Assembly: GCA_002633005.1 (NCBI GenBank)
Contig: NMRA01000363.1
Span: 370,935 to 434,934 of the forward strand
Direction: 5' to 3'
DNA: 64,000 nt
From: Phoronis australis
Taxonomy: Eukaryota > Animalia > Phoronida
The stretch's first letter is position 1. Each line of letters starts with the position of its first letter. Under the pieces are notes generated by a model, which saw nothing but the letters and a program-made list of their open reading frames with translations, was not told the DNA's origin and did no database searches. This document shows positions 5,052 through 54,730 of this stretch, piece after piece. Both the position numbers and the translations under genes were made by a program.

Positions 5052-6106
5052 CTGAAATAATATTTTCTTACATTTCTTCACATTTGTTATATAAGTATAG
5101 CTCAATAGCAGCCCTTCGTTTACACAAACTTCGTTGAAAACGCAACTAAACCTTATGTTTGAGAGCTTGATACTGGTTCGCTCGTAGTGTCGGAACAATC
5201 TTTCTTCAAGTGTGCAGCTATGTAGTGAAACACCGAGAAACATAACAAAAAATTAAATATAGCTAGTGTTTTAATTATCAAACCTTTAAGCTAACTTGTT
5301 TTTTAGTTTGTCTTAGGTAGCTAAGTCCGTGTCATTTTTACCATGTTTTAATGGTTCTGTATTGTTGGAATTGAAACTAAACGAGATTTTACGAGTTTTC
5401 ATAGTGTTTTGAAATTTTCCTCAAGTATTTTGAGATAATGGGTCATGTTTCAGACACTTTCGTGTTCACCAATTTATACTTTCGCCATTATTGTTAGAGA
5501 ATGCAAGACCACGTCACTTTGGGGATTTTTTACTTAGAACAAGACCATGATTCGTGTCGTTGCATAACATATCAGAAGTTCGGTTTAGTATGAGTGTAAT
5601 CGTCTTGTTCGCCAAGGTCGTGTGCAGCATCTTTAAAGTGGAAAGAAACCCGTCTTCCATCGCGAAAAATAATAACTTTTGATTTCAACCAGTTACCGTT
5701 ACAATATTTTTCTCAAATATTTTCACAGTAAAGATAGAAGAGATTTCAGCACTGAGAAGGAATTGGCATTTCGTTATTGCTCGAGACATTTCGTTATTGG
5801 GCGAGACAAGGCTCTTCAAATTGACTTGTCACGTCGGGTTATTTTATACGTCAATAATGATCCAAAGACATAAACGAAGATCCACTTCTCTGCAAGACCA
5901 CAAAGCACTTCTCATTTTAGTAAGAAACTAGTTGAGACTGATTTTGTAGGGTTACAGTAAGTGGCTAGCGAACTATTAATATCCATCAACAGTCAATTTG
6001 TCAACAACTGCTCTATTCTAACGGTAATTTGCATCTACTTTACGGACACAAGCAGGGACACTGAGGAAACTTCACTCATTTGGTGGCTTCCTGGCTAACG
6101 ATCAGC

Positions 6107-6722: not shown

Positions 6723-7780
6723 TTTCAGCTCGCTTCTTGGCAAAGTATATAGGGCCAAGGTAACCCAAAGTCCACTCGATTGTGGAAATACAGTTGAGGA
6801 AATGTCTTCACTTCAATAAAGCCGAAACTCTTTAAGTTGCTAAACGCGTTTCTCATGTTTCCGTGGGAACCGGAACATTGGTCTTGTTCAAACAAGTGAC
6901 TATTGGTAAATCCAGGTTCGGGTTGGGGGTGGGGGGGTTGACTTACTACATCGACTCAGTTATAGGCTGGATTGCCAGCAGAAAGTGATCTAATTTACAC
7001 ATCATATGTTTTCCCACAAAATGTATGCACGGCACAATGTTCCTAACCGCCGTTTACCCCCAAGCCCGGTCGTCATGTGTCAGTGTGGCACGATTGCTAG
7101 TGAGAAGGGTACTTTTAACTGGTGGACATAAATGCAAAATCCTCGTATAACGAGAACAAATACGGATACCCCTCCGGATGCCAGGTAAATTAAGGATTGT
7201 TGACGGTATTTTCACATCGGTTCGTGTATGCGGCGTATCACGCACTGAAATCAGCCATGTAAATAAATCAAAGAAATGCGTGACGTAGACTGGTGTGAGA
7301 ACGTGAAACGATACACCTCGCGAGGACTCCAGATAGATCGTTCACCCCATGAAATGAAATATGATATTAATGAGAGTTTTTAGTTGAAAAGTTTTTACAG
7401 AAAACTTAAAGTACATTTAATTCGCCGGCAGGGTTTTTACCATTCAGCATTCACTGCGTCCGAAAAACGCACTTACGAAAAGAATCGCATGACCTCGCTT
7501 AGGCTAAAATTACGACTTCATAACGGACCGTGAAGCACAAAACTTGCGGGGCATGCAGTGTAATCAAGAGAAGTGAAATAAACGTTCACGTCATTTCTCC
7601 TCTCGCGTAAGGTCTATTCACGACCACTGACACAAATCTGTATTCAGACGTAGTCCAGTCATTCTACGGATAACCCGAAAAAAATTGCAACAGAAGGTTT
7701 TATTGCATAAATCGTATCCTTTCACACCCCTTATTGGGAAAAAAAGTCTACCGGAATCGGAGTGGCGGAAGTTGGTTTTT

Positions 7781-8420
7781 CAAGATGGCGGACAAAATGG
7801 CCGCCAGATTTTCTGATACGCACTATAACTGAAGAGTGGAATGTGATAGAGTAAAAATTTAAAAAGGTTTACCTATGTTTTGTTGGTCAAAAAATCCATT
7901 GGAAATGGTTTACATGGCTGTGGTGACACCGTCCGCCATTTTCCAAGATGGCCGCCAAATCTACTTGAGTCGCACAACTTCAAACGAACAGATTAGTGTA
8001 TCTTCTTGCTTCAAACATCGCATCATAGGTTTTATGGGTCGACTAATCCATTGAGACTCATTGCATTTGGTACTAATGATTACTTCCACCATTTCCAAGA
8101 TGGCGGACAAAATGGCCGCCAGATTTGCAGATGATCATTATAACTCGAGAGTGGAATGTGATAGAGTAAAAATTCAAAAATGTTTACCTATCTTTTTTGG
8201 GTCAACAAATCCATTGGAAAAGTTTTGCATGGCCGTGGTGACACCATCAGCCATTTTCCAAGATGGCCTTCAAAACTATTTCGAATCGCACAACTTCGCA
8301 CAAACAGATTAGTGTATCGTCTTGCTTCAAGTATCATATGTTTTCTGGGTCGACTAATCCATTTAGACTCATTGCGTTTGGCTCTAATGATTACTTCCAC
8401 CATTTTCTAAGATGGCCACC
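7781..8420. repeat. Two tandem ~315-bp subterminal repeats rich in CAAGATGGCGG / GCCATTTT motifs
   Basis: Units begin caagatggcggacaaaatggccgccagattt at about 7781 and 8096. The motif matches the YY1 consensus. Confidence 0.8.
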
Positions 8421-8759
8421 AAATAGTTGCTTCGTGTGAGAACTTCCGATTCCAAAGACACGCCATATCCTGAGCTTTTTAAGTCAGCACATCCATTACA
8501 ATATTTTTTGTCTGGCTCTTGATGATTACGACTACCATTTTCAAAATGGTTTAACGAATAACTTATTTGGGTCAAAAACATCAGGTTTGCCTGAACTGAA
8601 GGATCATTCTCCTCCTGAAAAAATGTGCTGTATTGAAAATAACTCTCTGCAATTAATTCAGTGATCTACTATCCACACTGTCTGTGTCACTTCCAGTTAG
8701 TTGTAAATGCTAGTGAATCTATACACAATCAACCAGAACTTACACAACTAATCTCTGTC

Positions 8760-14100: not shown

Positions 14101-16830
14101 TGCAGAAAGAAGCAGGTTCGCGCGCAAACTCTGTAGGCCTATGTCTCTTAGCATGATACTGCCAATGGAAGCGTGGTGGCGCAGTTGTAGAGCACGCGCG
14201 CTTTGGTACACAACTCGTGAGTTCGAGTCCGTGGCGCTTACAAATTGTCCAGTTTCAAACATGTTCTGTTTTTTTTTCTCACTTCAGAAATCAAGGAAAA
14301 TACTTGTTTTTAGAGGCAAAAACAAAATTTTCTCCTGGGCGGGATGGGAGAAACACCACTCCAGACCTCCCCCTAGGCCAGATCGGGCTCCGTCGGTAGT
14401 AGCTGATACGTGTACACTGTACGAATGGTTCAGGTCGAACGTAATTCTTCCTTTTACTTTGAACTCGTTAATAGTTATATTGTACCTTTTTGGCACTACA
14501 CCAAGTTTTCTCTCTGAAGTTATTTCGCCATCATTTGCTATTCCGTCGTTCATTGTTGGCCGTCAGCCGACTGACGAAGTCGCCAGAGACCCTGTGCCGA
14601 TATCTCAAGACCTTTCAAACTAACGTCGACGCGCGTCGAATGTTTTCGGGAGATAAAGAGGTCAGTACGAACGCTTAATTTCGGTCCTAGATCGAATTTA
14701 GCAGCGCCAGCCAACTTCACATAAAACAGGCAAATCTATAAGGGCGGAGGATTTTTATGAAATTTTCGCCTACGGATTTGGTAAAAATTAAATTTTAGGT
14801 ACAGATGGCTTCGGTACAACACGTTCTAACCATATATTAAGGGCTAAATCGTGTGCTACTTGGTCTTTACTCCGTAGCAGGCTAACTTTATGTATATACA
14901 TGTAGCTTAGACCGATTCCAGTTTTAATTTCATGAAACGGGGCTGAGACATTTTAGTCTTTAGTTAAGACAGAAAAAGTGCCATGAAACGGTGCCTGCTG
15001 CCTGTCAAAACAAACCTTGTTTTGTGGCATCGCGATTGCACTCGTGTGTTCGTGTGGTGGAAACGTAATCAAAGCCGATTTTTATATTGCGCTTTAAATA
15101 CTGACTCCTCTTAAAACAAGTAAATGGCCAAAACACCGCCTAATAATAAACCCATTCTACCAGTTCGTAAATATTGCGGCGTTCCCCAGATCTTGGCTTC
15201 GATAATTAACCCATGCCGGGGTCATTGTATTGAGGACACATTCGAGGAACTTTGAGTAGACTGTGTACCATTTGACTGGCCTTTCAATTTGAAACTTACC
15301 GGGTTAATGCTGAAATTATTAGCATTTTAAAATGCATTCCAAAATGAAGGTACAAGTATTTCACAGAAAAAAGCAGGTGTTTGTGATAATATTCCATATT
15401 TTGGGAATTGCATAAGAGCAACTCTTTGGCAATGTAGTCGATGTTCTTGAAAAAATTTAAATGGCTCTCCCATTCACGTACACGGGAGACCCAAGTTTAT
15501 TTACCCTATCTCATTACATATCCAAGATGGTGGATGAAACCGTCGTCTCGTTTTATTGGAAAACCGGTAGAAGACGCGCTTCGACAAAATGCTTTTGCAT
15601 TCGGGACACCTCTGGTATTTTCGTATCCGAAAACTTAGGGTATTTCGTAGCCTCAACTTTCTCTCGGGCAGTGAACGTTATCTTCAAATCATTCTGCTAT
15701 TTTAAGGACGCATAACTTGACGCATGAGCCACGTGAGATAAAGTTACCGAAATAGGCATGTCACGATGTTCTATAGAAGATCCTTGCGTGTCTGCTCTGA
15801 TCCAGAATTGCTTGTGGTTTGACACACTGTGCTGCATAGCGATAACTGGCGTCAAACACAACGGACGTTGAATATTTTCATTTTCGTCTCGTCAGTTTAT
15901 TATATGCCAAACAGGCTCTTTCATGTTATCGGACATTAGAACGACCCTTTTAGCTATTGTCCCTCGCACAACAATTCCTTCAAATCCAATTCGGGAATAT
16001 CTTCCTCGCTACGCCCTGCTGGGAATACAGACGTTAGTTATACCACCCATATAAAAGACGTGTAGTTAAAAATATTATTTATTTATTGAAACGGTCAAAC
16101 TCTGCAACTGATTCTAACCTCTTTAAAACATTGGATATAAATGTCCACCTCTAATTATTTTTCAAGTATTTGAAAACATCGTGTTGCTTACTATCTGAAA
16201 ATCAATTTACTTATCCATTCAAGCGTCACTATTTTCGGATTTCGATTAGATATAAGCGGTGAAACAAGGCAACGTAAACGTTGTAAATGTTGCTCTTTGT
16301 TTATGATTTTTCAGCTAGCATGTCTTTTGCAACATGTCATTATATTGCAGAACGTTCAATATCAGCAAAGATGTCTATTCTTCTATCAAGCAATGTAATT
16401 TGCCTCCCGAATCATTTTTTTTAATATTGAAAGAGCAATAAATCTATGACTTCTGTCAAAACTAAATCTTTATGCTTTTTACTGATATGGTCTCACTTCG
16501 TTCTATATTCATATTAGAAACTATCTTCAGGCTTGAGCAGTCGTAATGTGCTTCAAACTAGACCAAGTGTTTGTCAAGGCGCGTTAAATTTAGTACCCAC
16601 GGAAGTTTGGCCTTCAGGCTATTTATTGTAACCCGGAAAAAATAAAAACGCTTAGACGTTACGTTGTAAGTACCATTACGCCCATTAAGAAAGTTTACAT
16701 TACTAACCCCTGGGCACGGGCTTTAATCTTCATTCTGGAAATGGATATGGAAATCATTTTCATTACAATCTGTGGGAACTCCAACTAACTGTTTTTTAGT
16801 GTGCGCTCGAGTGCTTAAGTTTATTGGGTA

Positions 16831-16888
16831 ATAGTTTCTTACAGGGGTCTCGTTAGTTGATAGTTTCTTACAGGGGTCTCGTTAGTTG
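16831..16888. repeat. Perfect 2x29-bp tandem duplication
   Basis: atagtttcttacaggggtctcgttagttg occurs twice, within the likely 3' UTR of tail exon C. Confidence 0.9.
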
Positions 16889-17152
16889 AGAGTCTAATTT
16901 TCTCAACTGAAAACGGCCATTAAACTGTTTTTCAGAATCCATGACCCCTGGAAATGGCTGTGTTTACGTATAGCAATCTACTTCTAGCTTGTACTTGATG
17001 ACCCTAACATTATAGGTACAGGACAGGTTCGGTTTAACAGTAGAGCAAAATTGTCTACATTTTCTTAGAAATAGAAAAATATCAAATAGAAAAAAAGAAA
17101 CCTTGACATATGAATCTAGTTAAACTATCGGTCAAGAATTTGCTGCTATCGT

Positions 17153-17687
17153 TCAATCAATTCCTTGCGCCTGTTTTGTCTTGTCACCTACGCTAAAGGG
17201 GTTCTTTTGCGCTTCTGTTAAGAAACCAATGGCACCATTGATCGCGCTCATAGCGAAGAGCATTCGCTGTTTGGCATCTTCGCTTTGGAGGTCACTGATA
17301 GGTTCCACGTCAAGTAGGGGCATTTCGTCCATGTCAGAGTCGCTGTTGTCCAATTCGCCGTCTGTATCCAGCTCATTTCTCTTTTCGAAGTGACCTAGTG
17401 TGGTCCTTAGCACGCTTATTACGTATAGCAACTCCGCTTCTTCTGTGCTTGCTAGAGGAGGTTTCAACAACACTCCGCCCCTTGATTTGGGCAACAACGG
17501 CAGGAGACCCACCGGGTCTTCCATATCAGAGCAACTGTCTTGCTGCTCCAACTGAGGCTCGAAGTAAGCGTCTGCGTCTTCAAAATTGTCGAACGGCATC
17601 CCATCTTCCTTGCCATCATATTCGTCCTCTAGTATTGCGCATTCTTCTCCGGTTTCTGGCAGAATCAACGACTTTCTCTTTCTGTGC
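17153..17687 (-). CDS. EGF/sushi receptor: alternative terminal exon C (cytoplasmic tail, 177 aa)
   Basis: Acceptor tgttcttttag|G at 17687 (phase 2). Begins with a basic stop-transfer (R)HRKRKS, is acidic, and is paralogous to exon B. A minus-strand AATAAA lies at 16820-16825. Confidence 0.75.
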
Positions 17688-17955
17688 CTAAAAGAACAAG
17701 AGTGAACAACTCCTTTAACTTTAATTTCCCTCATCAAAACAATTCAAACCAACAAAGCCTGCAACCCTTCTGTTTTCACCTCACGTCATATACACCATAC
17801 TTATTAATATAACCACGAGAACGATGCCTGTACGTCTGCGTCGACAATTTGGCGAACAGAAATTCTACCTTAGGCTTTCCTCGTCATAAGCTTACCAAAC
17901 AATGCAAGTTACTGTTACGGGGTAAACAACAAAGGCACTGGTTGAAAACACGAAC

Positions 17956-18076
17956 CTCAAAAACATAAAGAGCAACAGCAAGAGCAACAGAAGGAGAAGC
18001 AGCAACAGCAGCAGCCAGTACAGAGAAGTCTTCTTGTCAGCCTCACCATCGGACTGTTTCAGCAATGTCGCCTCGT
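17956..18076 (-). CDS. EGF/sushi receptor: second (alternative) transmembrane exon TM2
   Basis: gtatttgcag|AC...TTG AG|gttcg; 121 nt, phase 1 to phase 2. Encodes (D)EATLLKQSDGEADKKTSLYW-L15-FMFL(R). Not in the ORF track. Confidence 0.75.
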
Positions 18077-19770
18077 CTGCAAATACAACGTGACCTCAGA
18101 TGCTGACTTGATGGAAACTACGTTCAGGCAGGTGAGTCGGAGCCAGTGTTTCAACTCCGATGGGACCTCAAACTAAATTAGATAAGATAAGGAATAATAT
18201 CCGGATTTTCAGGAATCTGAATGACATAGGTTATTGGGTTTATCATTTACGCAACAGGACAACGGTCGGTGCACAAACTGAAACGCCGTTTGTCTTAGAA
18301 ACAAGGAAACGTAATATACTACAGTAGCTCTAATTCGGAGGATTTTCTCATTATGAGGAATGACCTTCGCGAATCCCTGACTACCCTTCCTTCGTCGAAG
18401 ATTGCATCAAATCAAATCAATTTTCATTACATGGCCCTTGCGAAATTGGCACTAAAATTTTCATTAGTCAAATTAATTGAGACGATATGGGGGTTTGAAA
18501 GAACTTACATTTTGTTATTACTTGAATGCAGGCACTACAAGTTGGTTTGTCATGGCGCGACATTTTATGCGTCGAACTTGGTCTTAAGAATAACGAACAA
18601 TCAATTCTTTGCAATACCAGACATTATTTCTCATCTAAGTTAGGGACAAGTGGAGACCGATTTTAAAGCACCAAGCGAGTAGTGTAAATCAAAACTTTGT
18701 TTCAAGAACGGAACACGCTTGTTTATAGGCGCTGTAACAAAGGATGGCCTTTTCAACGAAGACACTCAACAGCATCGTTGTGTGGTGCTTTAAATACCAC
18801 GTTGTTGCCGCTCTATGCGTACACTGCACTGGTATTGGTGTGCATAAATGTGCAGCACTGACGCAAACCTTACTGTGACTATCTCACAGGCTTTACATAT
18901 GTCTCAGTAGCTCATGGGATAATTGAATCACACAAGATGTTGTTAGACTCCGATTGAACGACTAAATATAGAATATCAACAAAACAATAAACTTTCGTTC
19001 ACTTATTCTCTGTAGCATGTTAAACGCGAAACTGAACAAAAACTGGTTAGTCAACTCGGCAAGTTTCGAAATAAGTGTCCAAAGAAAACAGGCAACATTT
19101 TTATAGGAAACCGACTACACACTTTGGAGGCCCAGAAATGCAATCTCAGGCTTATACAAGGCAGGAAGTTGGACAATGATGTCATGAAGAAGGAAACCTA
19201 TCGATACTACTTATCTACTTAACGTTATACTGAAGGTTGCAAGTATGCTACATGCGTTGAGGTTACACGTAAAACTGGGGATCATAACTTCAAGCGCATT
19301 TTGTAGTTGCTGAACAAACTATAAATAACGTAATGCCTTTGTTGTCAAAACAACCCAGAATGCAGAGTATTCAGGCAATGCTTCTTGCCTAATTACAAGC
19401 GATATTCATCCGCTTTGTTTGTCGTACTGATTTTTTGGCATATATTTACAGCAACGTGGTAGTCAGGTGTTTGATAGCTGGCGCAAGAAATGATCGTTAG
19501 GACATTTTCAGTTGCCAAAAGTTGTAAAAATTTGCAAAAAGTTGAAATACTTAGAAAAGCCATGCTGACACAAAGTCGACATGCTTAGCGAGAGTACTGA
19601 GAACACAATCTTCACAGCGATCATCACCAATAACAGATGCTTAAGATGTTAAGTGAGGAAGAATTTTGAGGTTATTTAAGTTGTGATCACCCGCGGGGGG
19701 TCATCTGATGAAACTTTTTCAGCCCTTACTTAGACCGATATAAAGCTAACTGAATACCAAAATTTCTTAA

Positions 19771-20841
19771 CCCCACTTCATGAAAATTCTGAAAACCAAA
19801 ATTAAGACCGAAATCGGCCTAAGCTAAGATCGAAAGTTGGTCTGCAACTGAAAAGCCCTAAGATTGGACTTTTGGTCTAAATGATCAAAAGTTAGGACTG
19901 CTATCACCATAAACTGCTGAGGAACAAATTTTGTTATTATTTTCACAATCAAGTGACCCAAAAAAATTTCAAATTGAATATCATTTGCTTTCCATTCGAG
20001 AATTGGTAATGACCGTAGCGACATTGCAGCGCCACGTACGGGCACATGTGAAATGATATTTTCCGGTCATACAAGGTTGTTTATAAGCAAACAAGATCCC
20101 TATTTTAGCCAAAATGAAAATGAAAATAAATCACCATCTAGAGTTTCAAGACCATGAGGATTCTGGAAACCGTATTCCAGACACCGCCATGCTTAGTTTT
20201 GTGAATTCGCAACAGGTAGCGAAAGCGTAGTCCTTATGCTGACGTATGTCAAAACACGAGCTAATATTTCTGTCTAAGTTAAAGCCGTACACCAAAATCC
20301 GACTTTGAGTTCATGAAACATTTTTTTCCGAATTTCTGTCTTCGATCCTAACTTAAGCCCAAATTACGTTCTTAACTTAGACAATTTTTTGGTCTTATAG
20401 TCTATCTTGAACGGTAACACCAGTAAAATTGGCCAATACAGTACGTTAAGGGCATTGCTCTGAGCACAGTAGTGCCATAAATTGTCAAATGCAATGAACT
20501 GTTAGGCGTATTGGCTTGCTGTTGTCTACGTTACCGCGAGAATCAACTTATAATTCAAACACCTGCAAGTATCACCAGCACGCAATGGAGTTCTAGTCAG
20601 GCCACTATTCAGTACAAATGTTTTCGGCCTTTTGTTGTTTGTGCTGAGATTTCGCGGTGACGCAACACGGCAAAAAGCAACTTCACCTATCATTTGACGG
20701 GCCTACATTTGACTAATTAACCTTGCGTTTTCTTATTTAGCCAAGACTTTGTTAGAACTACCTGGTTAGCCAATAGATCTAAAATAACAATATTCGGATG
20801 AAGTTAGGCTTTAAGTCTTAAGTCAGTTTTCATGAAAGGGG
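19771..20841. mobile_element. Non-autonomous DNA transposon (PIF/Harbinger-type MITE-like)
   Basis: Inverted ends ccccacttcatgaaaa / ttttcatgaaagggg. Related sequence at about 14900-14945 and from 62981 onward. Confidence 0.45.
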
Positions 20842-21422
20842 TACCACAAAGGCAGGTGAATTGCCCAACACTTATAATGCTAGATTCTAAGCAGTGGTAT
20901 TGTTGGATTATTTTCTAAAAAAGGGACGCACGAGGTTATCGGTTTTTTTTTTCGTTTTTTTGTCTTATTATCACTGTAAAGAGAACAAATAATGTTCACT
21001 TTGTCTGACCGAGGTAATACATACAAATACAATTGAAAGATCATGTTCTACTAAATAAGACCACATAGGAACAATGTCACACTCAAAGGGCTTTTAGTTA
21101 GCGCATACTCATGCACATGTACTGTATGACAAAGAAGCTCTTAGCCACATCATACTCGGATACTTTATTATAAAGACTGGCGCCTACAATCCTGAAAGTT
21201 GACATGAAATATCGCAACCTTAAAACACTTGTCATGAAGCCAACTACGTGTGCATTGCTACGGCACTTTAACCTGCCGTGGACTAAAGTAGAAACACTGG
21301 ACAATTTCACTCTATCATGTACAAAAGTATAACTTTGAAAAAAACAGCCAGTACGTTACCCAGAAGTGACCTTCGTTACACTCTCTCGAAATAATGAAGA
21401 TTCATTAGTTTTTAAAAAGCCT

Positions 21423-21927
21423 CTATTCACAAGCAAAACTGATATCACCGCTGAAAGGATTGTCTTTTGCTTCTCTCAGACATTCAACAGCTCCGTTGAT
21501 GGCGTTCATTGCAAACACTATTCGCTGTCTTGCCTGATCACTCCGAGCATCTGAAACGGGACCAACCTCAACCAGCGCCGGTTCTTCAAAATCTGAGCCG
21601 TCCTCACTGTCCGTATCCAATTGCTGTCTCATCTCAAAGTGACGGAGAGTACTCTTGAGCACGTCTATCACGTACGACACATTCGTCTGATTCACGTCTG
21701 CCATCGTCGGCCTCAAAACGAGGCCTCGAGTAGAGCTATGCAACTGTGTTAAAAGGTGCGGCGGTTGTTCAGTCTCGATCGCGTCATATTGTTGTTCGCC
21801 CCATGCTTCAATGTATGGCACTTTCACTTGCGCATTCGGTTCCAGCGTTAGTATTTCCTCATCTAATCCATCGACTTTGCTCATTTCAGACTCCTTCACG
21901 ACGACTAAACGATTGCGTTTTTTGCAC
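21423..21927 (-). CDS. EGF/sushi receptor: alternative terminal exon B (cytoplasmic tail, 167 aa)
   Basis: Acceptor ttttgtttcatgtag|G at 21927 (phase 2). Begins (R)CKKRNR and is paralogous to exon C. A minus-strand AATAAA lies at 21164-21169. Confidence 0.75.
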
Positions 21928-22140
21928 CTACATGAAACAAAACAGTTACCAGAAGTGTTAACACTTGAAGTGTGCGTCAAATTTTGCAGTGAGAAAATAC
22001 ATGCTCGTGTGACAAAAGATTGTTTCGAAATGTTAACAAGACATTACTAGTTCATAAATAGATCTCATTATTTTTGCCACTATTTCACAACCGGCTCAGG
22101 ATAAAAAATTTCACATGACATTATCTGTTCTATTCATTAA

Positions 22141-23667
22141 AGGCGAAGGCAACCTTTTTCCATGTCATTTTGAGCTAAAATAAGGTTGGTAGGTTATCCT
22201 AGACATATTTTCCACTTAATTACAGCTTTTCGTAATTTTATAAATTACTCGTCCGCTACTCCAGAAGTGACGTTTTAGGAGGCAAGCGTTTCCCGCCACT
22301 TGGTTTTGCGTTGACTTTACCGTGCGAATCTGTTCTATTCTACTTTTGTTTTGTGCTGTTTTTCAACAATTGTCGCCGCCACTTTCCATCGGCGAGTATT
22401 CTGCGGCAAGATAGGTTAGTAGAGAACTCAACTACGTTNNNNNNNNNNNNNNNNNNNNNNNNNNNNNNNNNNNNNNNNNNNNNNNNNNNNNNNNNNNNNN
22501 NNNNNNNNNNNNNNNNNNNNNNNNNNNNNNNNNNNNNNNNNNNNNNNNNNNNNNNNNNNNNNNNNNNNNNNNNNNNNNNNNNNNNNNNNNNNNNNNNNNN
22601 NNNNNNNNNNNNNNNNNNNNNNNNNNNNNNNNNNNNNNNNNNNNNNNNNNNNNNNNNNNNNNNNNNNNNNNNNNNNNNNNNNNNNNNNNNNNNNNNNNNN
22701 NNNNNNNNNNNNNNNNNNNNNNNNNNNNNNNNNNNNNNNNNNNNNNNNNNNNNNNNNNNNNNNNNNNNNNNNNNNNNNNNNNNNNNNNNNNNNNNNNNNN
22801 NNNNNNNNNNNNNNNNNNNNNNNNNNNNNNNNNNNNNNNNNNNNNNNNNNNNNNNNNNNNNNNNNNNNNNNNNNNNNNNNNNNNNNNNNNNNNNNNNNNN
22901 NNNNNNNNNNNNNNNNNNNNNNNNNNNNNNNNNNNNNNNNNNNNNNNNNNNNNNNNNNNNNNNNNNNNNNNNNNNNNNNNNNNNNNNNNNNNNNNNNNNN
23001 NNNNNNNNNNNNNNNNNNNNNNNNNNNNNNNNNNNNNNNNNNNNNNNNNNNNNNNNNNNNNNNNNNNNNNNNNNNNNNNNNNNNNNNNNNNNNNNNNNNN
23101 NNNNNNNNNNNNNNNNNNNNNNNNNNNNNNNNNNNNNNNNNNNNNNNNNNNNNNNNNNNNNNNNNNNNNNNNNNNNNNNNNNNNNNNNNNNNNNNNNNNN
23201 NNNNNNNNNNNNNNNNNNNNNNNNNNNNNNNNNNNNNNNNNNNNNNNNNNNNNNNNNNNNNNNNNNNNAACGCTGCGTTCTTCACACGAACGAGCCAAGT
23301 ACGGCGAAGTGTGTCATCCATCGGAAAGCGATGCAAAGGTACTCCCAAAGCGCGCGTGAGCCGATAATTAGTACATCCTGGTACGCAGCAACAGTGTGGC
23401 ATGTTGACTGACTAGTAAATGAAAGCAAACGACGACGGAACTTAACACAACCGAGGTAGAACAATGACTGACTCGGCAGCTCTCACAGTCAGACAATATG
23501 AAAAGAAATTGGCGCGAAATGCTTGCCTTCTAAAACGTCACTCCCAGAGTAGCGGACGCGTAATTAATAAAATTACGAAAAGCTGTAATTAAGTGGAAAA
23601 TATGTCTAGGATAACCAACCAACCTTATTTTAGCTCTAAATGACATGGAAAAAGGTTGCCTTCGCCT
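22141..23667 (-). mobile_element. Kolobok-type DNA transposon with a THAP-domain ORF start; interior lies in the assembly gap
   Basis: TTAA on both sides (22137-22140, 23668-23671). TIRs of about 160 bp start AGGCGAAGGCAACCTTTTTCCATGTCA. THAP N-terminus MPHCCCVPGCTN..LHRFP..RRTWL starts at 23402(-). Confidence 0.85.
22439..23268. other. Assembly gap (N run)
   Basis: Run of n characters. Confidence 0.99.
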
Positions 23668-24172
23668 TTAAGACATTCAGTTTCTGGTCAGACTGTAAAA
23701 TTGACGCACTGAAATATCTGCTTTCGCGGAGATGATTTTTATGTTCGTGTTATTGACGTTTTACAGGCAGAAGAGTATGTTTTCCCTTTGACTGAAACGG
23801 TCTGCGCGTTTCAAATCTGTTTCTGGCACAAATAAACATGGATGCGTTCCGTAGACGCCAGAATCTCGCGAACAAAGAAGATCACGCACGACAACGCAAA
23901 ATCACGACAGTGAAAAGCGAGTATTTCACAAGTAGGCTTCCTACCTTACCAGCTCCCCATAACAAAATGGCGGCAACTGAAGTGATTGGTTCGTGAAGCC
24001 GAGATGTTGAACTGTGATATCGAATTCACAGCAAGATTTCTCGCCGCAGTTGCCATACCAGTGTCTTGCGTTTGCGGAACGCATTCCACATTTGTCAGTT
24101 CTAATGATTTCAATACACGTCTAGCAATTGCTCATCACAAGTGTTTTTCGAAGCATCAAAAATACAAGCCAT

Positions 24173-24479
24173 CTATTGTGTCTGCAGTGTCGAATCTTTC
24201 GTGTTGCCTTCGTCATTAATGGTCTCCACCTCTGTTCCGTCTTCCGACTCGCTGCTGCTCTCTTCTGATCCCTCGTCTTGTTCTTTGTCTTTTCTTTCAA
24301 TTTCTTTTTTCTCACCTGTTTCCTCCACTTTTTCCACAGCTTCTATTTTTGCTATCTGTTCTACATTTTCTAATTGTTTGGGTTTTATTTCTGGTACTCG
24401 GTGTGTCAAGTATGTCTTTTCAGTGACTGCAAGTCGTTTCCTAAGTCGGCGTTGTAGCAGGATGTCACACCCATACAAC
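24173..24479 (-). CDS. EGF/sushi receptor: alternative terminal exon A (cytoplasmic tail, 101 aa, Glu/Lys-rich)
   Basis: Acceptor atccttgcag|G at 24479 (phase 2). Encodes (R)LYGCDILLQRRLRKR then an E/K-rich and acidic Ser segment, ending in a stop. Confidence 0.7.
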
Positions 24480-25548
24480 CTGCAAGGATGTATCGCTTGA
24501 GCAATAAGCCAGCTTGGAGGAGCCTAAGCACCCGGTGTCGTGCAATTCCAAAATATATTTCTAACCAATCATCACCTGATTGTCATACATGCAAAGTTTA
24601 ACCTGTCCTCATGCAATTTCATTTTGAAAATCTTGTGAATACATGCTCTAACTCAAAGTCTCTCGATTCATTGTGTGATAACAGGTTATGCATTAAAATG
24701 AATTTTATCATGCAGAATTTGAAGTTATCATTTGATGACTGAAATGATTTCTAAATGTGTGGGAAAACGCTAACCAGTTGTTTTTGCTTGGTTACAAACT
24801 TGACTGAAAACAAGATTAGCGAGTCAAGCTCACAAGTCGAAAATAAATGGTTCAGTAAATTGGAGTGCCACGTTTTCATTTCACCAGTGGGGAGGAGAAA
24901 ACCTTAGTTTTCAGACAAAATGCAGACGTTGATACTGCGTTTTATTATTTTCGCCATCAAAACATTCTCGTGCACAATTGAAATTAAGAAATATCCGGTC
25001 AGGTTAGTTGGGACTTTGAAAGCTGTTCTTGAATGTGGTGCCTAACCACAGTTCAAAGTAACATAGCATAAAGTAAACGTTTGACACATTGTTCTCGAAG
25101 TTACAAGCATTCTCTGGATATCAAAGCTTCAGATTTTTGTGCTGTTTTTGTAATTCATGGGTGTCTATTTCAATATCCTTGTTGATGGATTTCAATGAGC
25201 TGCTTCAACACTGTAACGCGCCACCAGGACAGCGCTACGTAATGTAATACGTTGGCCTTGCACTTGAAGCAAGAAATCTTGGCCTATAGACAAGAAATGG
25301 AACAGTGAATTATGTCCCATGACGTAAGAATCATATCCGGGCCATAATTCAGCATTACAACCTTAACGACTGATCACTTCAGTGGCTGCCATTTTTCTAG
25401 GTTACGACAGTAAGGTGCCGAGCCTACCTGCAAAACACTTTTCTTTCATCTGCATGATCTCGCTTTTCTCGCAAGAAACCTATTGTATGGAACACTACCC
25501 GTTTTGCACGTTGCTACATATGTGACTGGCGCTACCACCTTCACTTAC

Positions 25549-25687
25549 CTAATCGCTAGAATTGCGCCAATGATCAAGAGAGACAGCAACACGGGAATCA
25601 GATAGAGGAATTTCAAGTTGGTATGATCTTCACTCCCACTGCCAACAGTTTCCTTATACACTGACTTTTGCATCAGGTTGCCGATAC
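25549..25687 (-). CDS. EGF/sushi receptor: transmembrane exon TM1
   Basis: Acceptor ttttcccaattgacttccgcag|GT and donor ATT AG|gtaagt; 139 nt, phase 1 to phase 2. Encodes ..KFLYLIPVLLSLLIIGAILAI(R). Confidence 0.85.
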
Positions 25688-26881
25688 CTGCGGAAGTCAA
25701 TTGGGAAAATGGAAAGTCGTAAGCTGTTTTCATGTTTAATGGTCTCGTTAAACTCTCAATACTTCCAGAAATTTGATATTGACATGTAACTCTAAAGTTA
25801 TATTGTGCCTGGAAAACGCTATAAGGAGCCTTGAACGTCACTGCATCGATGGTCTTTTCCGGTCGAAGATGCAGATCGCGCAGGACAAATTAGCAGGAAA
25901 CGAATGTAATCTCTCGACGTATTTGACTAACCATTTATGCCTCTGTTGCTTAGAGGAACGTAGGTATTTGTTTACAATTTAAATGTTTTTGTTGAAAAGT
26001 AGCCAAGAAAACATGAACATTCATCCACCATTCTGCCTGATAGTTTCAGCTGCCAGAATAAGGATTTGCACAGGAAGTGCTATGCTACTTTGACATGGCG
26101 GCGACGCTCTGTCACCAAATTGCTCACCAACTAAAATTGAATCGCTGAGATGTAAGCTTTAGTAACCTCCTGACTGGAGAATAAAACCATTAACTTAGTT
26201 TGTAAAATATCTGTGAATTGCTCGAAGAATACGAGAAACTCCTTTTTACTTTGTTCTCCTCAATACTATGCTAATGCAATGTTGTGTTGACCAATATATT
26301 GAACCTGGGTTCAACGTAGATTTCCCCAGCATCCCGAGCTTGGCGAGTGTCAATTATGCAGATTTTTTTTGCAACGCGCCACAAAGCAAATCTTGAAAAG
26401 AGACAAGTGAACTCTTTCGTATTTTCTTTTGTTATACTGTGATTGGAATTGAGCTTCCAGGTCTTACGTTTGGCTTAAAACTCGCTTCATTTTTAAGGTT
26501 GTCTCACGGCCACATTTCTCCCGCGTAAGCATCGAGCAACATATCTTAAATCATTTGTTGATTTGATGTTATGTATTTAAAAGAGGGACTACCAACATGA
26601 AAAGAACACAGCACAGTAAAAAAACAAAATAAACGCTAATTTATTCTGCCTGTTTTGTGCACGTACTGCTGTACACAGCGCCACCATCCGCGTCCCCATG
26701 CCTCACGATGGCGCTAATCAATTTAGCCATTTGGGATTGGTGAGAAGATATGTGACTATGAAACTGTTAAATTTGCCGTCTCGTCGAGGTTTCGAGCTAA
26801 TAAAATTGCAATTTTGCGTTCACACTTATTTGTCTACGGCCACATTAGAAACGGCAGGTGTAGGACATTTGAATCACAAAC

Positions 26882-27055
26882 CATCACAAGTGGGCAATAC
26901 TCCTGTCCAGCTGGCGTTTTCATCACAGGACAGTCGCCGTTGGCCATTTAACATGTAGCCAAAAGTACAGTAGAAGTCCACGTGCGAGCCGTAGGTGAAG
27001 GTGTCACCGTAACGTACTCCCGAGCTCGGTATCCCTGGATCCGGACAAGAAACGA
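26882..27055 (-). CDS. EGF/sushi receptor: sushi/CCP exon 4
   Basis: VSCPDPGIPSSGVRYGDTFTYGSHVDFYCTFGYMLNGQRRLSCDENASWTGVLPTCD; cag/gt boundaries, phase 1-1, 174 nt. Missed by the ORF track. Confidence 0.92.
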
Positions 27056-27660: not shown

Positions 27661-27852
27661 GTTGACAAACGGGCAGTTGCTCTATGATCCAGGTGCCGTT
27701 TTTGCCGCACGTGATTGTGAACGGACTTCCACTTAGGTTGTATCCCTTCATACATGACACTTGTCGAACTGCACCAATGTACGAGTGACCAGGTAAAACC
27801 TTAAGTTTGGTAATGGAAGGTAATATCACATCTGTCGGCATGCATCCGTACA
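27661..27852 (-). CDS. EGF/sushi receptor: sushi/CCP exon 3
   Basis: YGCMP...VSCMKGYNLSG...ITCGKNGTW...LPVCQ; phase 1-1, 192 nt, donor gtgagt. Confidence 0.88.
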
Positions 27853-29602: not shown

Positions 29603-29800
29603 CCTTGCAAAATGGTATCAATGACGTGTCAAACTTTTCCCAGCTACCATCCAGGTCACAAGTTACCGCAGGGTGATTTTCACATGATAGGACATATCCA
29701 CTCTTGCACGAAAACCGTAACCCGTCCACGTAGGCCACATTAACATCGTCGACTATGACCCCCTCCGGCAAAGGGAGATTAAATGTTTTGCACTGAATTT
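29603..29800 (-). CDS. EGF/sushi receptor: sushi/CCP exon 2
   Basis: IQCK...FSCKSGYVL...VTCDLDGSW...PFCK; phase 1-1, 198 nt. Confidence 0.88.
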
Positions 29801-30826: not shown

Positions 30827-31027
30827 TTGTGCACTCAGGGAACAAACTGTAATTCACAGATCTCCATGTACCGCCCGTGTCACATGTTATGTGCGGCATT
30901 CTCCACCCAGGTTGGGTCCTGTAACCCTCCTTGCACGTTACACTCAAACCTCTTAAGTACGTTACCTCTCGGCTGATCAATAAAACATTTTGGGCTAAAG
31001 GTCCGTCGAATGGCTGACAACTGATCT
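30827..31027 (-). CDS. EGF/sushi receptor: sushi/CCP exon 1
   Basis: ISCQP...VTCKEGY...ITCDTGGTW...FPECT; phase 1-1, 201 nt. Confidence 0.88.
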
Positions 31028-32023: not shown

Positions 32024-32143
32024 CAGAACAAGTGACTCCATCCCCGGTGTATCCGAAGAAGCACGTGCAACGAAACGAACCCCGAGTATTGAAGCAATGA
32101 GCTTTATGGTAACAGGAATGAGCGTTTGTGCACTCATCGATAT
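32024..32143 (-). CDS. EGF/sushi receptor: calcium-binding EGF exon
   Basis: DIDECTNAHSCYHKAHCFNTRGSFRCTCFFGYTGDGVTCS; phase 1-1, 120 nt. Confidence 0.93.
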
Positions 32144-32577: not shown

Positions 32578-32700
32578 CTGTACACTGTTTCCCGTCACCG
32601 GTGAACCCTCTCAGGCAAGCGCAAGAGAACGAGCCTTCATTATTGGAGCACTGACCGTTCGGATGACACAATGAAATTCCAGCTAAGCACTCGTCGATAT
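32578..32700 (-). CDS. EGF/sushi receptor: calcium-binding EGF exon
   Basis: DIDECLAGISLCHPNGQCSNNEGSFSCACLRGFTGDGKQCT; phase 1-1, 123 nt. Confidence 0.93.
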
Positions 32701-34848: not shown

Positions 34849-37800
34849 GTTATTTGTAAAATCTCAGCGACAACCTCGACTCTGTTCACAAGTAACACCT
34901 TGGATGTTCAAGTAAACGTTACCGATCCAACTCGCGACCACAGCACACTGCGACCAGTAGCGACCAGGTGGCATATTTAACATCTTCAGTCAAAATATTT
35001 GTAATAGAGCGGGCACAGTCACTAAAACGATGCTTTTGAACAAGCACTAGCAAGACCCAGTGCTGCCTTGTACAATGAGGCTATTCGGAGAATTCTCCTC
35101 GCGGTGTCGCTGCTGTACTAGTGGTGATTGAAATGCGCATGCGTCGCTGTCTGCATGTAAACAGCTGGTAAAAAGACGGATTGTTATCAAAATACGTCGT
35201 CGCGCAAAGCCTTATTATTGCTATTTTCTCTGGTGCAAGTCTTCGACAGGTGGTCACAAATTACCAAAGGACCTAAGGTTACTACATTCGTGGAGCCTTG
35301 CGGTCAAAAGGGTCAACCAACTGACAAAAGTGTGTGGATGCCGAAGCCCCATTGGGAGACTACATAACGTAACTTGGTAAGTTTTTAGCAACCAAGTTTC
35401 TATCGACATCGTTCGGTGATGCTATGCCCACCAGTTAACCCTCTGAATAACCGGTTTATTGAATGGAACTAAGTGTTACTTTTCAGAAACTCACCCAGGA
35501 CTCGGATGCCGGGTAGGCTAGCAGCACATATTCACATATTGTCCTTCAGGGGTGGGAATGCGCCCAATAAAAGAGGTGTATGGTACGTGACGCTCAGAAG
35601 TCAAGGATGACTTTCACAGCAGGTTCTCTTCAAAGATATGCTATGTCCAATAAAATTCTCTAGACGAGTGAGTTTCCTTATTTTATGGCGGACTCCACCC
35701 CCAGGACTACCAGATTAGTTACTGAATTAACCGATGAATAAGCTATTCAGTAAACGTCATAACATTGCATTAGAATAAAAACTAACACCTAGAATTAATT
35801 TTACTTGTTGAGGTCAGATGCACATTTTAGGTGTCGTGAAAAATACACATTATTAAGTCACTTTTAGCCTGTTTCACACAGTTTAATTCAGATCTTAAAT
35901 AAGACTTGGGTACAAAGATTATTAGTTTCTACATATAAACGTGAAGATGAAACGTCAAGTATGTTCTACCTTCCTAAAGTAGTTTTGTCTTGTGTTTTCT
36001 TTTATAATTTATTAGTATTTCTCCCGCTATTCTGTTACAGGTGAGAGAAAACGACTGAAACCAGCCGCCTGACCGTCTATTTTACCTTTGGACAAAGTGA
36101 AACGCAACAGCATTGACCTGAGAGAATCAGCCCTTGATATGCCTGATTTTGGATTCCATTTCCAGGGAAATTACAATTGTTTTAACAATTTTGTTTCTTT
36201 ATATACTTTTCTTGCATGTGGAACTTTTGTTGTGGACAAGTTAACAAAAAACTTAAAATTGTTCAAAGGCCTTCTTAAATAATTACACACACAAATAAAT
36301 CAAATGCAAACAAAGGTAATACTTCATTTTGATCACTGCACATTTCTAGAGGTCAACACTGAGGAAAACGACAATTCGGAAGCGTAATCGCTAATCATTT
36401 CAGCTTTATAAAGAATAAGCGCAAATGCACTGTGTGGGGCTTTAAAACTGAGGAAATATTGTGGTTTCAATAATTAGTGATAATCTTGCCTGTTAATGAA
36501 AATTTTATTCATCATCAAAGTGTAATATTAACGGGCTTTCTACTGACAATAAGACAATCGATGCAGTCACTGAACGTCATTTACCCATATTGTGTACCAA
36601 ATTGAAAAGTTTTTAACATTAGCATAGAGCCTTTCTTCTGAAAGGAAAAGTTAATGTCACTCAGTGAGAAAGGACAGGTATTTATACCAGATGCTTTTGG
36701 TTTTCATTTCACAGAGATCTAGTTTCCATAGCCTATAGAAGCGCTTGTAAAAAGGTCCAGTTTCGGCATATGGCTTTCCTCCAAGTAACCTCATTCAGCC
36801 CCAATTAGATCCTTGAAGGTAAACACAACAGCATATTACTTGACTCGTTTTGTGCCCAAAATCTGACCTTGATCTAGACCAGAGTGTCACTACGTCTTCT
36901 TTAGCTTCAATCCAGCATGTTTCTTCCAGGAAAGGAAATGAGCTATCGTCCACACATGACTTATTGCCTCTGAAAGGCCATCCTCACCAACGAGGCTGAC
37001 TTGTGTAACAGTCAGATATAGTTCCTGTTCATACACAAACGACACTGGCTTATGGTAATTTCGTACTACGATTCATATTTCACTAGCGCCACTGACATGT
37101 ACATTGTGCCATGCAGCACTAATGGTGTGTGAAAATGCTGTGGGCCGGAGTAACAAAGCTTGTTCGTTGTCTCCGATGAAGAAAGTAGGCTTTAACAACA
37201 GATCTACAATGTATGGGAAGAACTTGCTAGTTAGCTGCAGTCAAATGCATATCTCCTCTACACGGTACAAGCCCTCAAACCTAAAAACCAAATGTCAAGT
37301 GAAAACAGACATGATAGATTTTCATTTCAACGTGTAATAAATTTCCAGAAGACATAGGATAGGGAGTAAACAAATAGTCTAATGTATATTTACGTACTCT
37401 TTGCCATGGCATTGGGCTTGGATTGTAATCTCACTAACCAATATCGAGTTAAACATTCAGCATTCATTGATGTAACTGTCACTGATAAACCTGTTATAAA
37501 TCATTCCAAAAAATAATACTGCTTTGATGTACGAAAACATCCCGAGTGCTACGTCAAGTACCGTAAGACGCATCACAACAAACAAAGATTAACCCGACTG
37601 GCGACTGCCGTGAAGTCGACATCGGCGAGTATCTCAGTTAACAGGCATCAGTAGAATAAACATGGAAAAATTGTTAAAATAATCACAAGCCTTACCTTTG
37701 TATGAGGTCGTGCTTACTTTCTCTCATAGAAGCAACCTTGTCTTGCAATCTCAGATTCAGGTGGCACGCCTACAAGCCATTTCACCATGTATTTAAAGGG

Positions 37801-45800: not shown

Positions 45801-46487
45801 GGGTTCCTGATAACGTTGGTGAACGGTAACATCTATTTAAGGTATTACAACTGTCATCGATATTGTCATCTTCTCTGTTTTCATCCAACCTTCCCAGATG
45901 AAAACATGAATGAAGAGGACCTTCAGTACTTGAGTGACCACAGAATACTGTGTGACTTATGTTTAATTATTCAACGGTTCTTTTAAGAACCATTTCACGC
46001 TATACCTATGGCTCATGCACAGTACAACCAACAGCCCTTCTAAGGGTCACTTAACACTTACCAGGCAAAATGATCACTTGAGAATGTTGAATTATAAACA
46101 CACGGAGGTTAGACCAGTGAAATCGTTGCAGAGGCGCATTTTTAATCCGAAAAAAAATTTCTAAACAAAAACGTTATATAGGTTTCTTTTACATGCACAG
46201 GTACTCCTTAAAATTTGTGCACAAATACACTTTCGTATTTTTTCCAGTATGTGAACCACGAATCAACATCTGTCCGGTAAATATGCTGCTATTGTGCAAG
46301 CAGATGACAAAATCAGTCGGCACCGAAATTTGAATTTTGCAATTACATGACCAGTGGCATTGCCAAAAGTACCCTCGATACCAACAGTTCTACTATCGGA
46401 AGACTTTGAACTACGCTTCAATACCGAAGTCATTTTTTTTCGATGTACTGGACAGTAAACTAGATTCGAGAATTTCCCGTCACTATA

Positions 46488-47133: not shown

Positions 47134-47259
47134 TTAAAAGAAGTGGTCAAATTTCAACTTTCAAATTTTTCCAAGTTTTGGCACTAATTCTTCTCTATGT
47201 CACTAATCAAAGTCTTGACAGTAGTTTATGTTGATTTATTTTTACATTATTTACATTAC

Positions 47260-50437: not shown

Positions 50438-50560
50438 CTGCACAGCTCTTCCCGTTGCCAGTGAATCCAGGTCTGCACCTGCATTCATAGGACCCGATGG
50501 TGTTCTCGCACGTGGCATTCTCATGGCACTCGTAATTTCCGGTCTCACACTCGTTTACAT
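50438..50560 (-). CDS. EGF/sushi receptor: calcium-binding EGF exon
   Basis: DVNECETGNYECHENATCENTIGSYECRCRPGFTGNGKSCA; phase 1-1, 123 nt. The ORF track shows a different frame here. Confidence 0.92.
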
Positions 50561-52316: not shown

Positions 52317-52439
52317 CTGTACAGGACTTTCCGTCTCCCAGGAATCCAAAAAGACACGAACACAGGTACGACCCAACGTTGTTGATGCACTTGGCATTGC
52401 TATCGCATTCGAATTGCTTAGCTGCACATTCGTCGAAAT
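52317..52439 (-). CDS. EGF/sushi receptor: calcium-binding EGF exon
   Basis: DFDECAAKQFECDSNAKCINNVGSYLCSCLFGFLGDGKSCT; phase 1-1, 123 nt. The ORF track shows a different frame here. Confidence 0.92.
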
Positions 52440-53672: not shown

Positions 53673-53795
53673 CTGAACATTTATCCCCAGTAATAATGTA
53701 ACCAGGTTCGCAGACACATCTGTAGGAACCTTCCGTGTTTGTGCACGTAGCATTCCGGGGACAGACAGTAGTCCCCGATTTACATTCATCCACGT
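53673..53795 (-). CDS. EGF/sushi receptor: calcium-binding EGF exon
   Basis: DVDECKSGTTVCPRNATCTNTEGSYRCVCEPGYIITGDKCS; phase 1-1, 123 nt. Confidence 0.93.
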
Positions 53796-54607: not shown

Positions 54608-54730
54608 CTGTACAACTCTTGCCTTCTCTTTTGTAGCCAGGTTTGCAATGACAAGTGTAGGAACCTAGTGAGTTGGTGCATATAGCATTTTTGTGACAGA
54701 CAGGAGAACCGGACGTACACTCATCCACGT
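54608..54730 (-). CDS. EGF/sushi receptor: calcium-binding EGF exon (most 5' exon identified)
   Basis: [41 protein letters not shown]; phase 1-1, 123 nt. No signal-peptide exon was found in 54731-64000. Confidence 0.93.

What the first reader, a model, noticed from the sequence alone, without database searches (positions are those of the whole stretch)
17153..27055. Receptor with a switchable membrane/cytoplasmic cassette: 2 alternative TM exons and 3 alternative tail exons
Seen: after the last sushi exon (which ends in phase 1) there are two TM exons, 25549-25687 and 17956-18076. Both are phase 1 to phase 2 and both end in AG. Three stop-containing exons (starting 24479, 21927, 17687) all begin with a phase-2 G, so every junction forms AGG = Arg, followed by a basic stop-transfer motif (LYGCDILLQRRLRKR, CKKRNR, HRKRKS). 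I found no ectodomain exons between these modules. Inference: one cbEGF/sushi ectodomain is delivered as TM1-A, TM1-B, TM2-C and possibly TM1-C isoforms. Read-through of the TM1 donor (AGG TAA) would give a tail-less form. This is analogous to CD46 tail switching but more elaborate, and suggests a recognition or adhesion receptor whose output is chosen by splicing and polyadenylation. An ORF-level view shows these only as unrelated short ORFs.
Basis: partly seen in the sequence, partly recalled or inferred. Interest (0 to 1): 0.85.

Follow-up and report, generated by a model that had tools for sequence, protein, structure and literature searches.

The report
One receptor gene, two membrane endings
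RNA reads show that this animal cell-surface receptor locus makes a short form (EGF repeats joined straight to the second membrane anchor and tail, skipping 32 kb) and longer sushi-domain forms whose tail is switched by an optional stop-carrying exon; these likely come from one gene whose end was duplicated long ago, an elaborate version of known tail-switching rather than a new principle.

Summary
TM1 follows the last sushi exon and splices to tail A or tail B. A is a cassette: its stop lies 3 nt before a GC donor that splices on to B. TM2 is not fed by the sushi exon. All 15 reads in the two listed loose ends at its acceptor come from cbEGF exon 50560-50438, a 32.4-kb skip of nine exons. Sushi4>TM2 and TM1>C were not listed. 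Tails B and C are old paralogues (46% identity, third codon positions 33% alike) with two predicted helices and a shared NPF motif; no relative was found among 1.84 billion proteins, though this lineage seems poorly covered. Best reading: one gene with two duplicated 3' modules, so ectodomain length is coupled to TM and tail (0.6). The EGF4>EGF5 junction was not tested, so a same-strand nested paralogue stays open (0.25). It works like CD46 tail switching plus LAMP2/fibulin-1 alternative ends, and belongs to none of these families.

The parts
54608..54730 (-). cbEGF exon 1 (phase 1-1); junction to the next exon inferred, not read
   Evidence: Pfam EGF_CA E 3.6e-12; splice sites
53673..53795 (-). 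cbEGF exon 2 (phase 1-1); junctions inferred
   Evidence: Pfam EGF_CA
52317..52439 (-). cbEGF exon 3 (phase 1-1); junctions inferred
   Evidence: Pfam EGF_CA
50438..50560 (-). cbEGF exon 4, the branch point: its donor splices to TM2 (shown) and probably to cbEGF exon 5 (untested)
   Evidence: loose end at the TM2 acceptor, 6+9 reads, 30/30 match to 50443-50472, next best 10 mismatches; Pfam EGF_CA
32578..32700 (-). cbEGF exon 5, first exon of the inner module; what feeds it was not tested
   Evidence: Pfam EGF_CA; outside both RNA lays
32024..32143 (-). cbEGF exon 6
   Evidence: Pfam EGF_CA; junction to sushi 1 in 9/8 reads
30827..31027 (-). sushi exon 1
   Evidence: Pfam Sushi; junction to sushi 2 in 11/13 reads
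29603..29800 (-). sushi exon 2
   Evidence: Pfam Sushi; junction to sushi 3 in 7/19 reads
27661..27852 (-). sushi exon 3
   Evidence: Pfam Sushi; junction to sushi 4 in 17/12 reads
26882..27055 (-). sushi exon 4; splices to TM1 only, as far as listed
   Evidence: Pfam Sushi; junction to TM1 in 7/14 reads
25549..25687 (-). TM1 exon (stalk plus transmembrane helix, phase 1-2)
24170..24479 (-). tail A cassette exon: 101-aa acidic tail, stop at 24175-24173, GC donor after 24170; longer form to a GT donor after 23945; a variant read form with a +2 indel at its start gives a stop two residues after the TM
   Evidence: A>B 9/4 reads, long A>B 3/1, TM1>A 11/1, variant 6/5; translation
22137..23671 (.). 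repeat element with 171-nt inverted arms (92% complementary) enclosing the 830-N assembly gap; intronic
   Evidence: reads on both strands in all four runs and spliced reads across it
21150..21927 (-). tail B last exon of the inner module: 167-aa tail (stop ends 21423) and 3' UTR, AATAAA at 21169 (3' end approximate)
17956..18076 (-). TM2 exon (short stalk plus poly-Leu helix encoded by a simple repeat, phase 1-2)
16080..17687 (-). tail C last exon: 177-aa tail (stop ends 17153), paralogue of B; 3' UTR with a pile of molecule ends at 16404 (ATTAAA at 16425) and coverage fading near 16080 (AATAAA at 16087)
   Evidence: TM2>C 20/13 reads

Best explanation
This is likely one type-I receptor gene whose 3' end was duplicated, so that cbEGF exon 4 splices either straight to TM2 and tail C (shown: a 32.4-kb skip of nine exons) or, by inference, into an inner module of two more cbEGF and four sushi exons, TM1 and a tail that is switched between A and B by a stop-carrying cassette exon (shown). 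Products: short (EGF)n-TM2-C; long (EGF)n+2-sushi4-TM1-A; long ...-TM1-B. Ectodomain length is therefore coupled to anchor and tail, not freely combined. Shown: every junction from cbEGF6 to B, cbEGF4>TM2, TM2>C, and B/C paralogy. Inferred: cbEGF4>cbEGF5, cbEGF5>6, the junctions among cbEGF1-4 and a shared 5' end, which was not found in the window. Likely function (about 0.3, untested): B and C carry a predicted helical hairpin, a shared NPF and an aligned acidic dileucine-like motif, and would couple the receptor to endocytic sorting or a helical partner. A lacks these motifs, so including A would uncouple the long receptor from that machinery.
For: Junction reads X1/X2: EGF6>S1 9/8, S1>S2 11/13, S2>S3 7/19, S3>S4 17/12, S4>TM1 7/14, TM1>A 11/1 (+6/5 variant), TM1>B 1/5, A>B 9/4, long A>B 3/1, TM2>C 20/13, all on the gene's strand. 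EGF4>TM2: 6/9 reads, agreement 1.0, unique 30/30 match, in frame. EGF4 donor and EGF5 acceptor are both phase 1 and EGF1-6-S1-4-TM1-B reads as one 713-aa frame. EGF5 has no start of its own; a scan for signal-peptide first exons able to reach a phase-1 donor found 0 paths on the gene's strand in 50437-32701, while 2 of 4 candidate first donors had a path on the opposite strand. B vs C: 58/125 identical, E 4e-35; over 126 aligned codons identity by position is 0.62/0.74/0.33, which implies an old duplication with both tails under purifying selection. AlphaFold2 of the shared core gives two helices at pLDDT 75-89, mean 68.8, pTM 0.53. NPF in B and C (shuffle P 0.009 and 0.012), absent in A. A skipping differs between libraries: 1 of 18 vs 5 of 11 reads at the TM1 donor, Fisher P 0.018.
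Against: EGF4>EGF5 was not tested: the first lay ended at 32300 and both lays are spent, so 'one gene' rests on phase and on a negative scan with no positive control (no signal-peptide exon was found for EGF1 either). A candidate first coding exon exists in the long intron (ATG 37573 or 37540, donor 37491, score 8.7, phase 2). Counts are small, from two unreplicated libraries of one study, about 18-19% of each run read; a third RNA run shows no exon coverage. TM1 and TM2 exons give no BLASTP alignment, so only the tails are shown to be duplicates. The dileucine and YxxPhi motifs are not above chance (shuffle P 0.41, 0.06, 0.64), and one NPF inherited by two paralogues is a single observation. 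No protein evidence.
Confidence: 0.6

Rival explanations
1. Two paralogous receptor genes on the same strand, one nested in the other: the outer gene is (EGF)n-TM2-C and its 32.4-kb intron holds a complete inner gene (own promoter and signal exon, EGF5-6, sushi 1-4, TM1, A/B).
For: The only junction read from EGF4 skips the whole inner module. B has its own polyadenylation signal (21169). The 17.7-kb intron has room and holds a hydrophobic ATG-to-donor candidate at 37573/37540-37491, with a 32-nt phase 2-1 exon candidate at 36117-36086 seen by eye. Duplicated tails fit two genes as well as one.
Against: At thresholds set by the gene's own weakest sites no complete path exists on this strand (0), and such first-exon candidates are at least as frequent on the opposite strand. 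Outer pre-mRNA passes nine same-strand, phase-compatible exons, so some EGF4>EGF5 splicing is expected in any case (inference).
Confidence: 0.25
2. One reading: the full EGF/sushi ectodomain is delivered on TM1 or TM2, and TM1 also joins C, in tissues or stages not sampled.
For: All joins are in frame. Only two expressing libraries were seen, and use of A already differs between them.
Against: No sushi4>TM2 or TM1>C row in the 15 of 20 joints shown, and no such loose end, against 15 reads for EGF4>TM2 and 33 for TM2>C. Listing needs 3 reads, so minor forms are not excluded.
Confidence: 0.1
3. Artefact: the inner module is misplaced by the assembly, or the EGF4>TM2 reads come from a near-identical paralogue elsewhere in the genome.
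For: The scaffold has an 830-N gap inside a repeat and two single Ns; no whole genome was available to check for other copies.
Against: Spliced reads cross the gap (TM1>B, A>B). No long gap lies between EGF4 and A or between B and TM2. 286 of 305 and 363 of 378 reads on 15800-20000 are at least 99% alike, and the EGF4 match is exact.
Confidence: 0.05

Closest known systems
CD46 CYT-1/CYT-2 tail switch
   Same: Sushi ectodomain, one TM exon, and a cassette exon whose inclusion or skipping before the last exon chooses the tail (exon 13 vs 14; PMC5064401, passages); use varies between cell states there and between libraries here.
   Different: cbEGF repeats in the ectodomain, tails of 100-177 aa, a second TM/tail module, an invertebrate-looking locus; no sign of orthology. 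That exon 13 carries the stop codon is recalled, not in the passages read.
LAMP2A/B/C
   Same: Alternative 3' ends that supply different TM and cytosolic tails (PMC10549195, passages).
   Different: LAMP2 isoforms keep an identical lumenal domain and use one last exon each; here TM and tail are separate exons and the ectodomain changes by six domains.
Drosophila Dscam exon 17.1/17.2
   Same: Two alternative TM exons in one receptor gene, there deciding dendrite or axon targeting (PMC2566808, passages).
   Different: In Dscam the two TM exons are alternatives at one position of the gene; here each TM exon has its own upstream exon and its own tail(s).
Fibulin-1 C/D
   Same: An EGF-repeat array followed by alternative C-terminal modules (PMC1747532, passages).
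   Different: Fibulin-1 is an extracellular-matrix protein; here the modules contain TM and cytoplasmic parts and one lies inside the other's intron.
Botryllus fester / uncle fester / FcoR receptors
   Same: Invertebrate sushi-containing TM receptors; duplication of the 3' exons (uncle fester); splicing that swaps cytoplasmic motifs or changes the region between ectodomain and TM (PMC12065747, passages).
   Different: They carry Ig domains and ITIM/hemITAM motifs; none of the ten ectodomain exons here is Ig and no ITIM or ITAM pattern is in A, B or C.

Membership tests
CD46 / regulators of complement activation | ectodomain built of sushi modules without cbEGF repeats (recalled) | tested here: not met
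   at least cbEGF6 is spliced to the four sushi exons
CD46 / regulators of complement activation | tail chosen by inclusion or skipping of a cassette exon before the last exon | tested here: met
   TM1>A, A>B and TM1>B reads; CD46 exon 13/14 passages
CD46 / regulators of complement activation | binds C3b/C4b as a cofactor | not testable with these tools
   sushi 4 matches many complement proteins in the PDB (73 sequences at E<=0.001), as any sushi domain would
LAMP2-type alternative last exons | identical ectodomain on all TM/tail variants | tested here: not met
   TM2 is fed by cbEGF4, TM1 by sushi 4
LAMP2-type alternative last exons | alternative 3' ends give different TM and tail | tested here: met
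   TM1-A/B and TM2-C; one-gene status inferred
Dscam-type mutually exclusive TM exons | both TM exons accept the same upstream exon and lead to shared tail exons (the latter recalled) | tested here: not met
   no sushi4>TM2 and no TM1>C listed (threshold 3 reads)
Botryllus fester/FcoR | Ig plus sushi ectodomain | tested here: inconclusive
   ten exons are EGF_CA or sushi; the 5' exons were not found
Botryllus fester/FcoR | ITIM, ITAM or hemITAM in the tail | tested here: not met
   no ITIM or ITAM pattern in A, B, C; one YxxPhi in B, not kept in C and not above chance; hemITAM was judged by eye only
Botryllus fester/FcoR | high allelic polymorphism tied to allorecognition | not tested
   a few variant sites and one frameshifting indel seen in RNA; no population or DNA data
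same-strand nested gene pair | inner unit has its own promoter and first coding exon, and is not spliced to the outer 5' exons | tested here: inconclusive
   no complete signal-exon path at the set thresholds, one candidate first exon; EGF4>EGF5 not covered by either lay

The most novel reading that the evidence does not exclude
A complete receptor gene sits nested, on the same strand, inside the last ectodomain intron of its own paralogue, or shares that paralogue's 5' exons only part of the time. The spliceosome skips nine strong exons as a block to make the outer receptor. Both carry a so far undescribed two-helix cytoplasmic domain, and the inner one is muted by a stop cassette that escapes decay through a GC donor 3 nt after the stop and exists as a tail-less allele: a paired active/decoy recognition system encoded in one locus.
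Probability: 0.2. Interest if true: 0.72.

Novelty: new variant of a known kind. Interest (0 to 1): 0.47.

Why it matters
It is an RNA-supported case in which duplication of a receptor's 3' end left two membrane modules in one locus and coupled ectodomain length (with or without four sushi domains) to the choice of anchor and tail, with a CD46-like cassette on top. Gene predictors and ORF views would split it or miss the 32-kb skip. The B/C tail has no match in the families, structures and protein sets searched, yet both copies are under selection, so it is a candidate new cytoplasmic interaction domain. The locus also offers a clean test of block skipping of many exons against same-strand nesting. 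The principles themselves (tail switching, alternative last exons) are known, which limits the surprise.

Tried and rejected
Homologues of tail B/C: none in the 90% protein set at near lengths (0 of 77 candidates) or longer lengths (0 of 7956), none in 1,835,955,588 representatives, none in metagenome contigs (0 of 276 pattern matches), Pfam or PDB sequences. This is weak evidence of novelty: the neighbouring DEG/ENaC protein also found nothing at E<=1e-20 among 4710 candidates, so the lineage looks poorly covered. Fold search of the core model: 0 matches at E<=0.001, 122 at E<=10, all generic helical pairs; the full-tail model was too poor to use (pLDDT 45.7). No Atlas answer and no complex prediction were obtained, and no binding claim is made. 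No whole genome is held, so copy number and the 5' exons could not be checked. The run index listed no RNA holder; the three raw RNA runs came by species label. X4 (contigs, RNA only by guess) covered repeats, not exons. Rejected: hidden ectodomain exons in the N gap (it lies inside a repeat and spliced reads cross it); A as a terminal exon; TM1 read-through as a main form; ITIM/ITAM signalling; TM1/TM2 homology could not be shown. A resemblance of the second B/C helix to vinculin-binding helices is recalled from memory, found no support, and is not claimed. The bacterial promoter scan is irrelevant to this animal locus. Literature: (sushi, EGF, alternative splicing, transmembrane, cytoplasmic tails, invertebrate) gave 0 papers; one search gave one biomineralisation listing and three listings on nested genes, none read. 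These three searches are the only basis for saying the locus was not found in print. No supplements were consulted.
Full report
Observation. On the minus strand the window holds six cbEGF exons (54730, 53795, 52439, 50560, 32700, 32143; all Pfam EGF_CA above the curated cut-off) and four sushi exons (31027, 29800, 27852, 27055), all phase 1-1. They are followed by TM1 (25687-25549), A (from 24479), B (from 21927), TM2 (18076-17956) and C (from 17687). No EGF or sushi exon lies between these modules. The 830-N gap at 22439-23268 sits between 171-nt inverted arms of an element that draws reads on both strands in every run, so it is unlikely to hide an exon.

RNA test. One search listed four runs by species label. 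X1 and X2 cover the exons on the gene's strand; X3 has no depth in the repeat-free exon bins and X4 covers repeats (about 18-19% of X1-X3 was read). Of 20 joints, 15 were shown. Gene junctions (X1/X2): EGF6>S1 9/8, S1>S2 11/13, S2>S3 7/19, S3>S4 17/12, S4>TM1 7/14, TM1>A 11/1, TM1>variant A 6/5, TM1>B 1/5, A(24170)>B 9/4, A(23945)>B 3/1, TM2>C 20/13. The other four rows shown lie in repeats. S4>TM2 and TM1>C were not among the rows.

What feeds TM2. A second lay on 15800-20000 listed six loose ends. The two at the TM2 acceptor (6 and 9 reads, agreement 1.0) match window 50443-50472 with no mismatch, next best 10. This is the 3' end of cbEGF exon 4; the five letters before the joint fit both sides, which explains the placement at 18081. 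The junction is 50438>18076, in frame, and skips 32.4 kb with nine exons. No loose end for S4>TM2 or TM1>C was listed (threshold 3 reads). The other four loose ends (18535, 18571, 19910, 19942) come in pairs around short stretches, look like repeat matches and were not traced. Unspliced sense depth of about 0.3-10 runs over 18197-20000 while the TM2-C intron has depth 0. These reads may be unfinished pre-mRNA, read-through of B's polyadenylation site, or an internal start; I could not tell which.

The A/B switch. A's stop (24175-24173) is followed by three bases and a GC donor, and there is no AATAAA/ATTAAA in 23300-24172. A>B reads (12 and 5, both donors) are about as many as TM1>A reads (17 and 6). 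So A is a cassette whose inclusion turns B into 3' UTR. A stop 3 nt before the last junction would escape junction-dependent decay (50-55-nt rule, recalled); the long form, 228 nt, would not. Skipping was 1 of 18 reads in X1 and 5 of 11 in X2 (Fisher P 0.018; 0.004 with two further X2 reads from table 5c). With two unreplicated libraries this suggests regulation and does not prove it. Eleven of the 23 TM1>A reads carry a +2 indel at the start of A that puts a stop two residues after the helix. The letters are not in the intron, so this is most likely an allele; no DNA run was available.

The tails. B and C are 46% identical over 125 residues; A is unrelated. Identity by codon position is 0.62, 0.74, 0.33 over 126 codons: an old duplication with both copies kept. 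TM1 and TM2 do not align. AlphaFold2 on the two-sequence core predicts two long helices around an acidic loop (mean pLDDT 68.8, pTM 0.53), without a significant fold match. Both tails end near a shared NPF (shuffle P about 0.01 each) and have an aligned acidic dileucine-like motif that is not above chance; none of the three has an ITIM or ITAM pattern. That NPF binds EH-domain endocytic proteins is recalled knowledge. No relative was found in any collection, but the neighbouring channel protein also found none, so coverage is doubtful. That neighbour's best PDB matches are FMRFamide-gated channels (E 2e-34 against 1e-17 for ASICs), a weak hint at a lophotrochozoan host (the family's distribution is recalled).

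One gene or two. For one gene: matching phase, one 713-aa frame through TM1-B, and no signal-exon path into EGF5 at the gene's own splice-site thresholds (0 paths; 2 first donors with paths on the opposite strand). Against: a candidate first exon at 37573/37540-37491, B's own polyadenylation signal, and no positive control, since no signal exon was found for EGF1 in 54731-64000 either.

Mechanism. Likely history: the TM/tail end was duplicated; one copy now follows the sushi block, the other is reached from an earlier EGF exon. The cell would make a short EGF-only receptor with tail C and a long EGF/sushi receptor with tail B or the acidic tail A. I infer, at about 0.3, that B and C link to sorting or a helical partner and that A uncouples the long form. 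Ligand and tissue are unknown; adhesion or recognition follows only from the domain content.

Comparison. The A/B switch works like CD46 exon 13/14 (PMC5064401, passages). The two modules work like LAMP2 alternative ends (PMC10549195, passages) or fibulin-1 C/D after an EGF array (PMC1747532, passages). They differ from Dscam's two TM exons (PMC2566808, passages) because each TM exon has its own upstream exon and tail. Botryllus fester/FcoR receptors share the themes of 3' duplication and motif swapping (PMC12065747, passages) but not the tested features. It is a member of none of these families. Three searches did not show this locus in print. One earlier scan finding on shark Crumbs tails is an analogy only and was not checked; searches by place and by sequence gave nothing.

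Verdict. Interest 0.47; 0.72 if same-strand nesting or a paired decoy system is shown.

Noticed in passing
window 3702-5252 (-): Open 516-codon frame for a DEG/ENaC channel, apparently intronless (Pfam ASC E 5e-51); best PDB matches are FMRFamide-gated Na channels.
   Followed up: partly
window 2-3442 (+): Open frame of 1146 codons running off the window's 5' end, convergent with the channel gene; not examined.
   Followed up: no
window 24479-24473: 11 of 23 TM1>A reads carry a +2 indel that ends the protein two residues after TM1; probably an allele.
   Followed up: partly
window 21923-21918: 2 reads in X1 and 2 in X2 have one extra base in the six-A run at the start of B (table 5c), which would shorten tail B to about 13 residues; allele or slippage.
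   Followed up: no
window 18077-20000: Unspliced sense-strand coverage upstream of TM2 while the TM2-C intron is empty; no in-frame ATG upstream of TM2 in the intron by eye.
   Followed up: partly
window 37491-37573 and 36086-36117 (-): Hydrophobic ATG-to-donor candidate and a short phase 2-1 exon candidate in the long intron; possible own 5' end of the inner module, not above chance.
   Followed up: partly
window 22137-23671: Inverted-repeat element around the assembly gap, with hundreds of reads on both strands in X1-X3: a common repeat family.
   Followed up: partly
window 17962-18015: The TM2 helix is a poly-leucine run encoded by a simple 12/24-nt repeat.
   Followed up: no
window 46485-48898; 51242-51955; 7777-8426; 47300-47460: Local duplications at about 1765, 440 and 315 nt spacing and a degenerate telomere-like repeat.
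   Followed up: no
window 55800-57000 (-): Broken frames that by eye recall Polinton-like capsid and protease relics (recalled likeness); three fragments gave no Pfam match at E<=0.01.
   Followed up: partly
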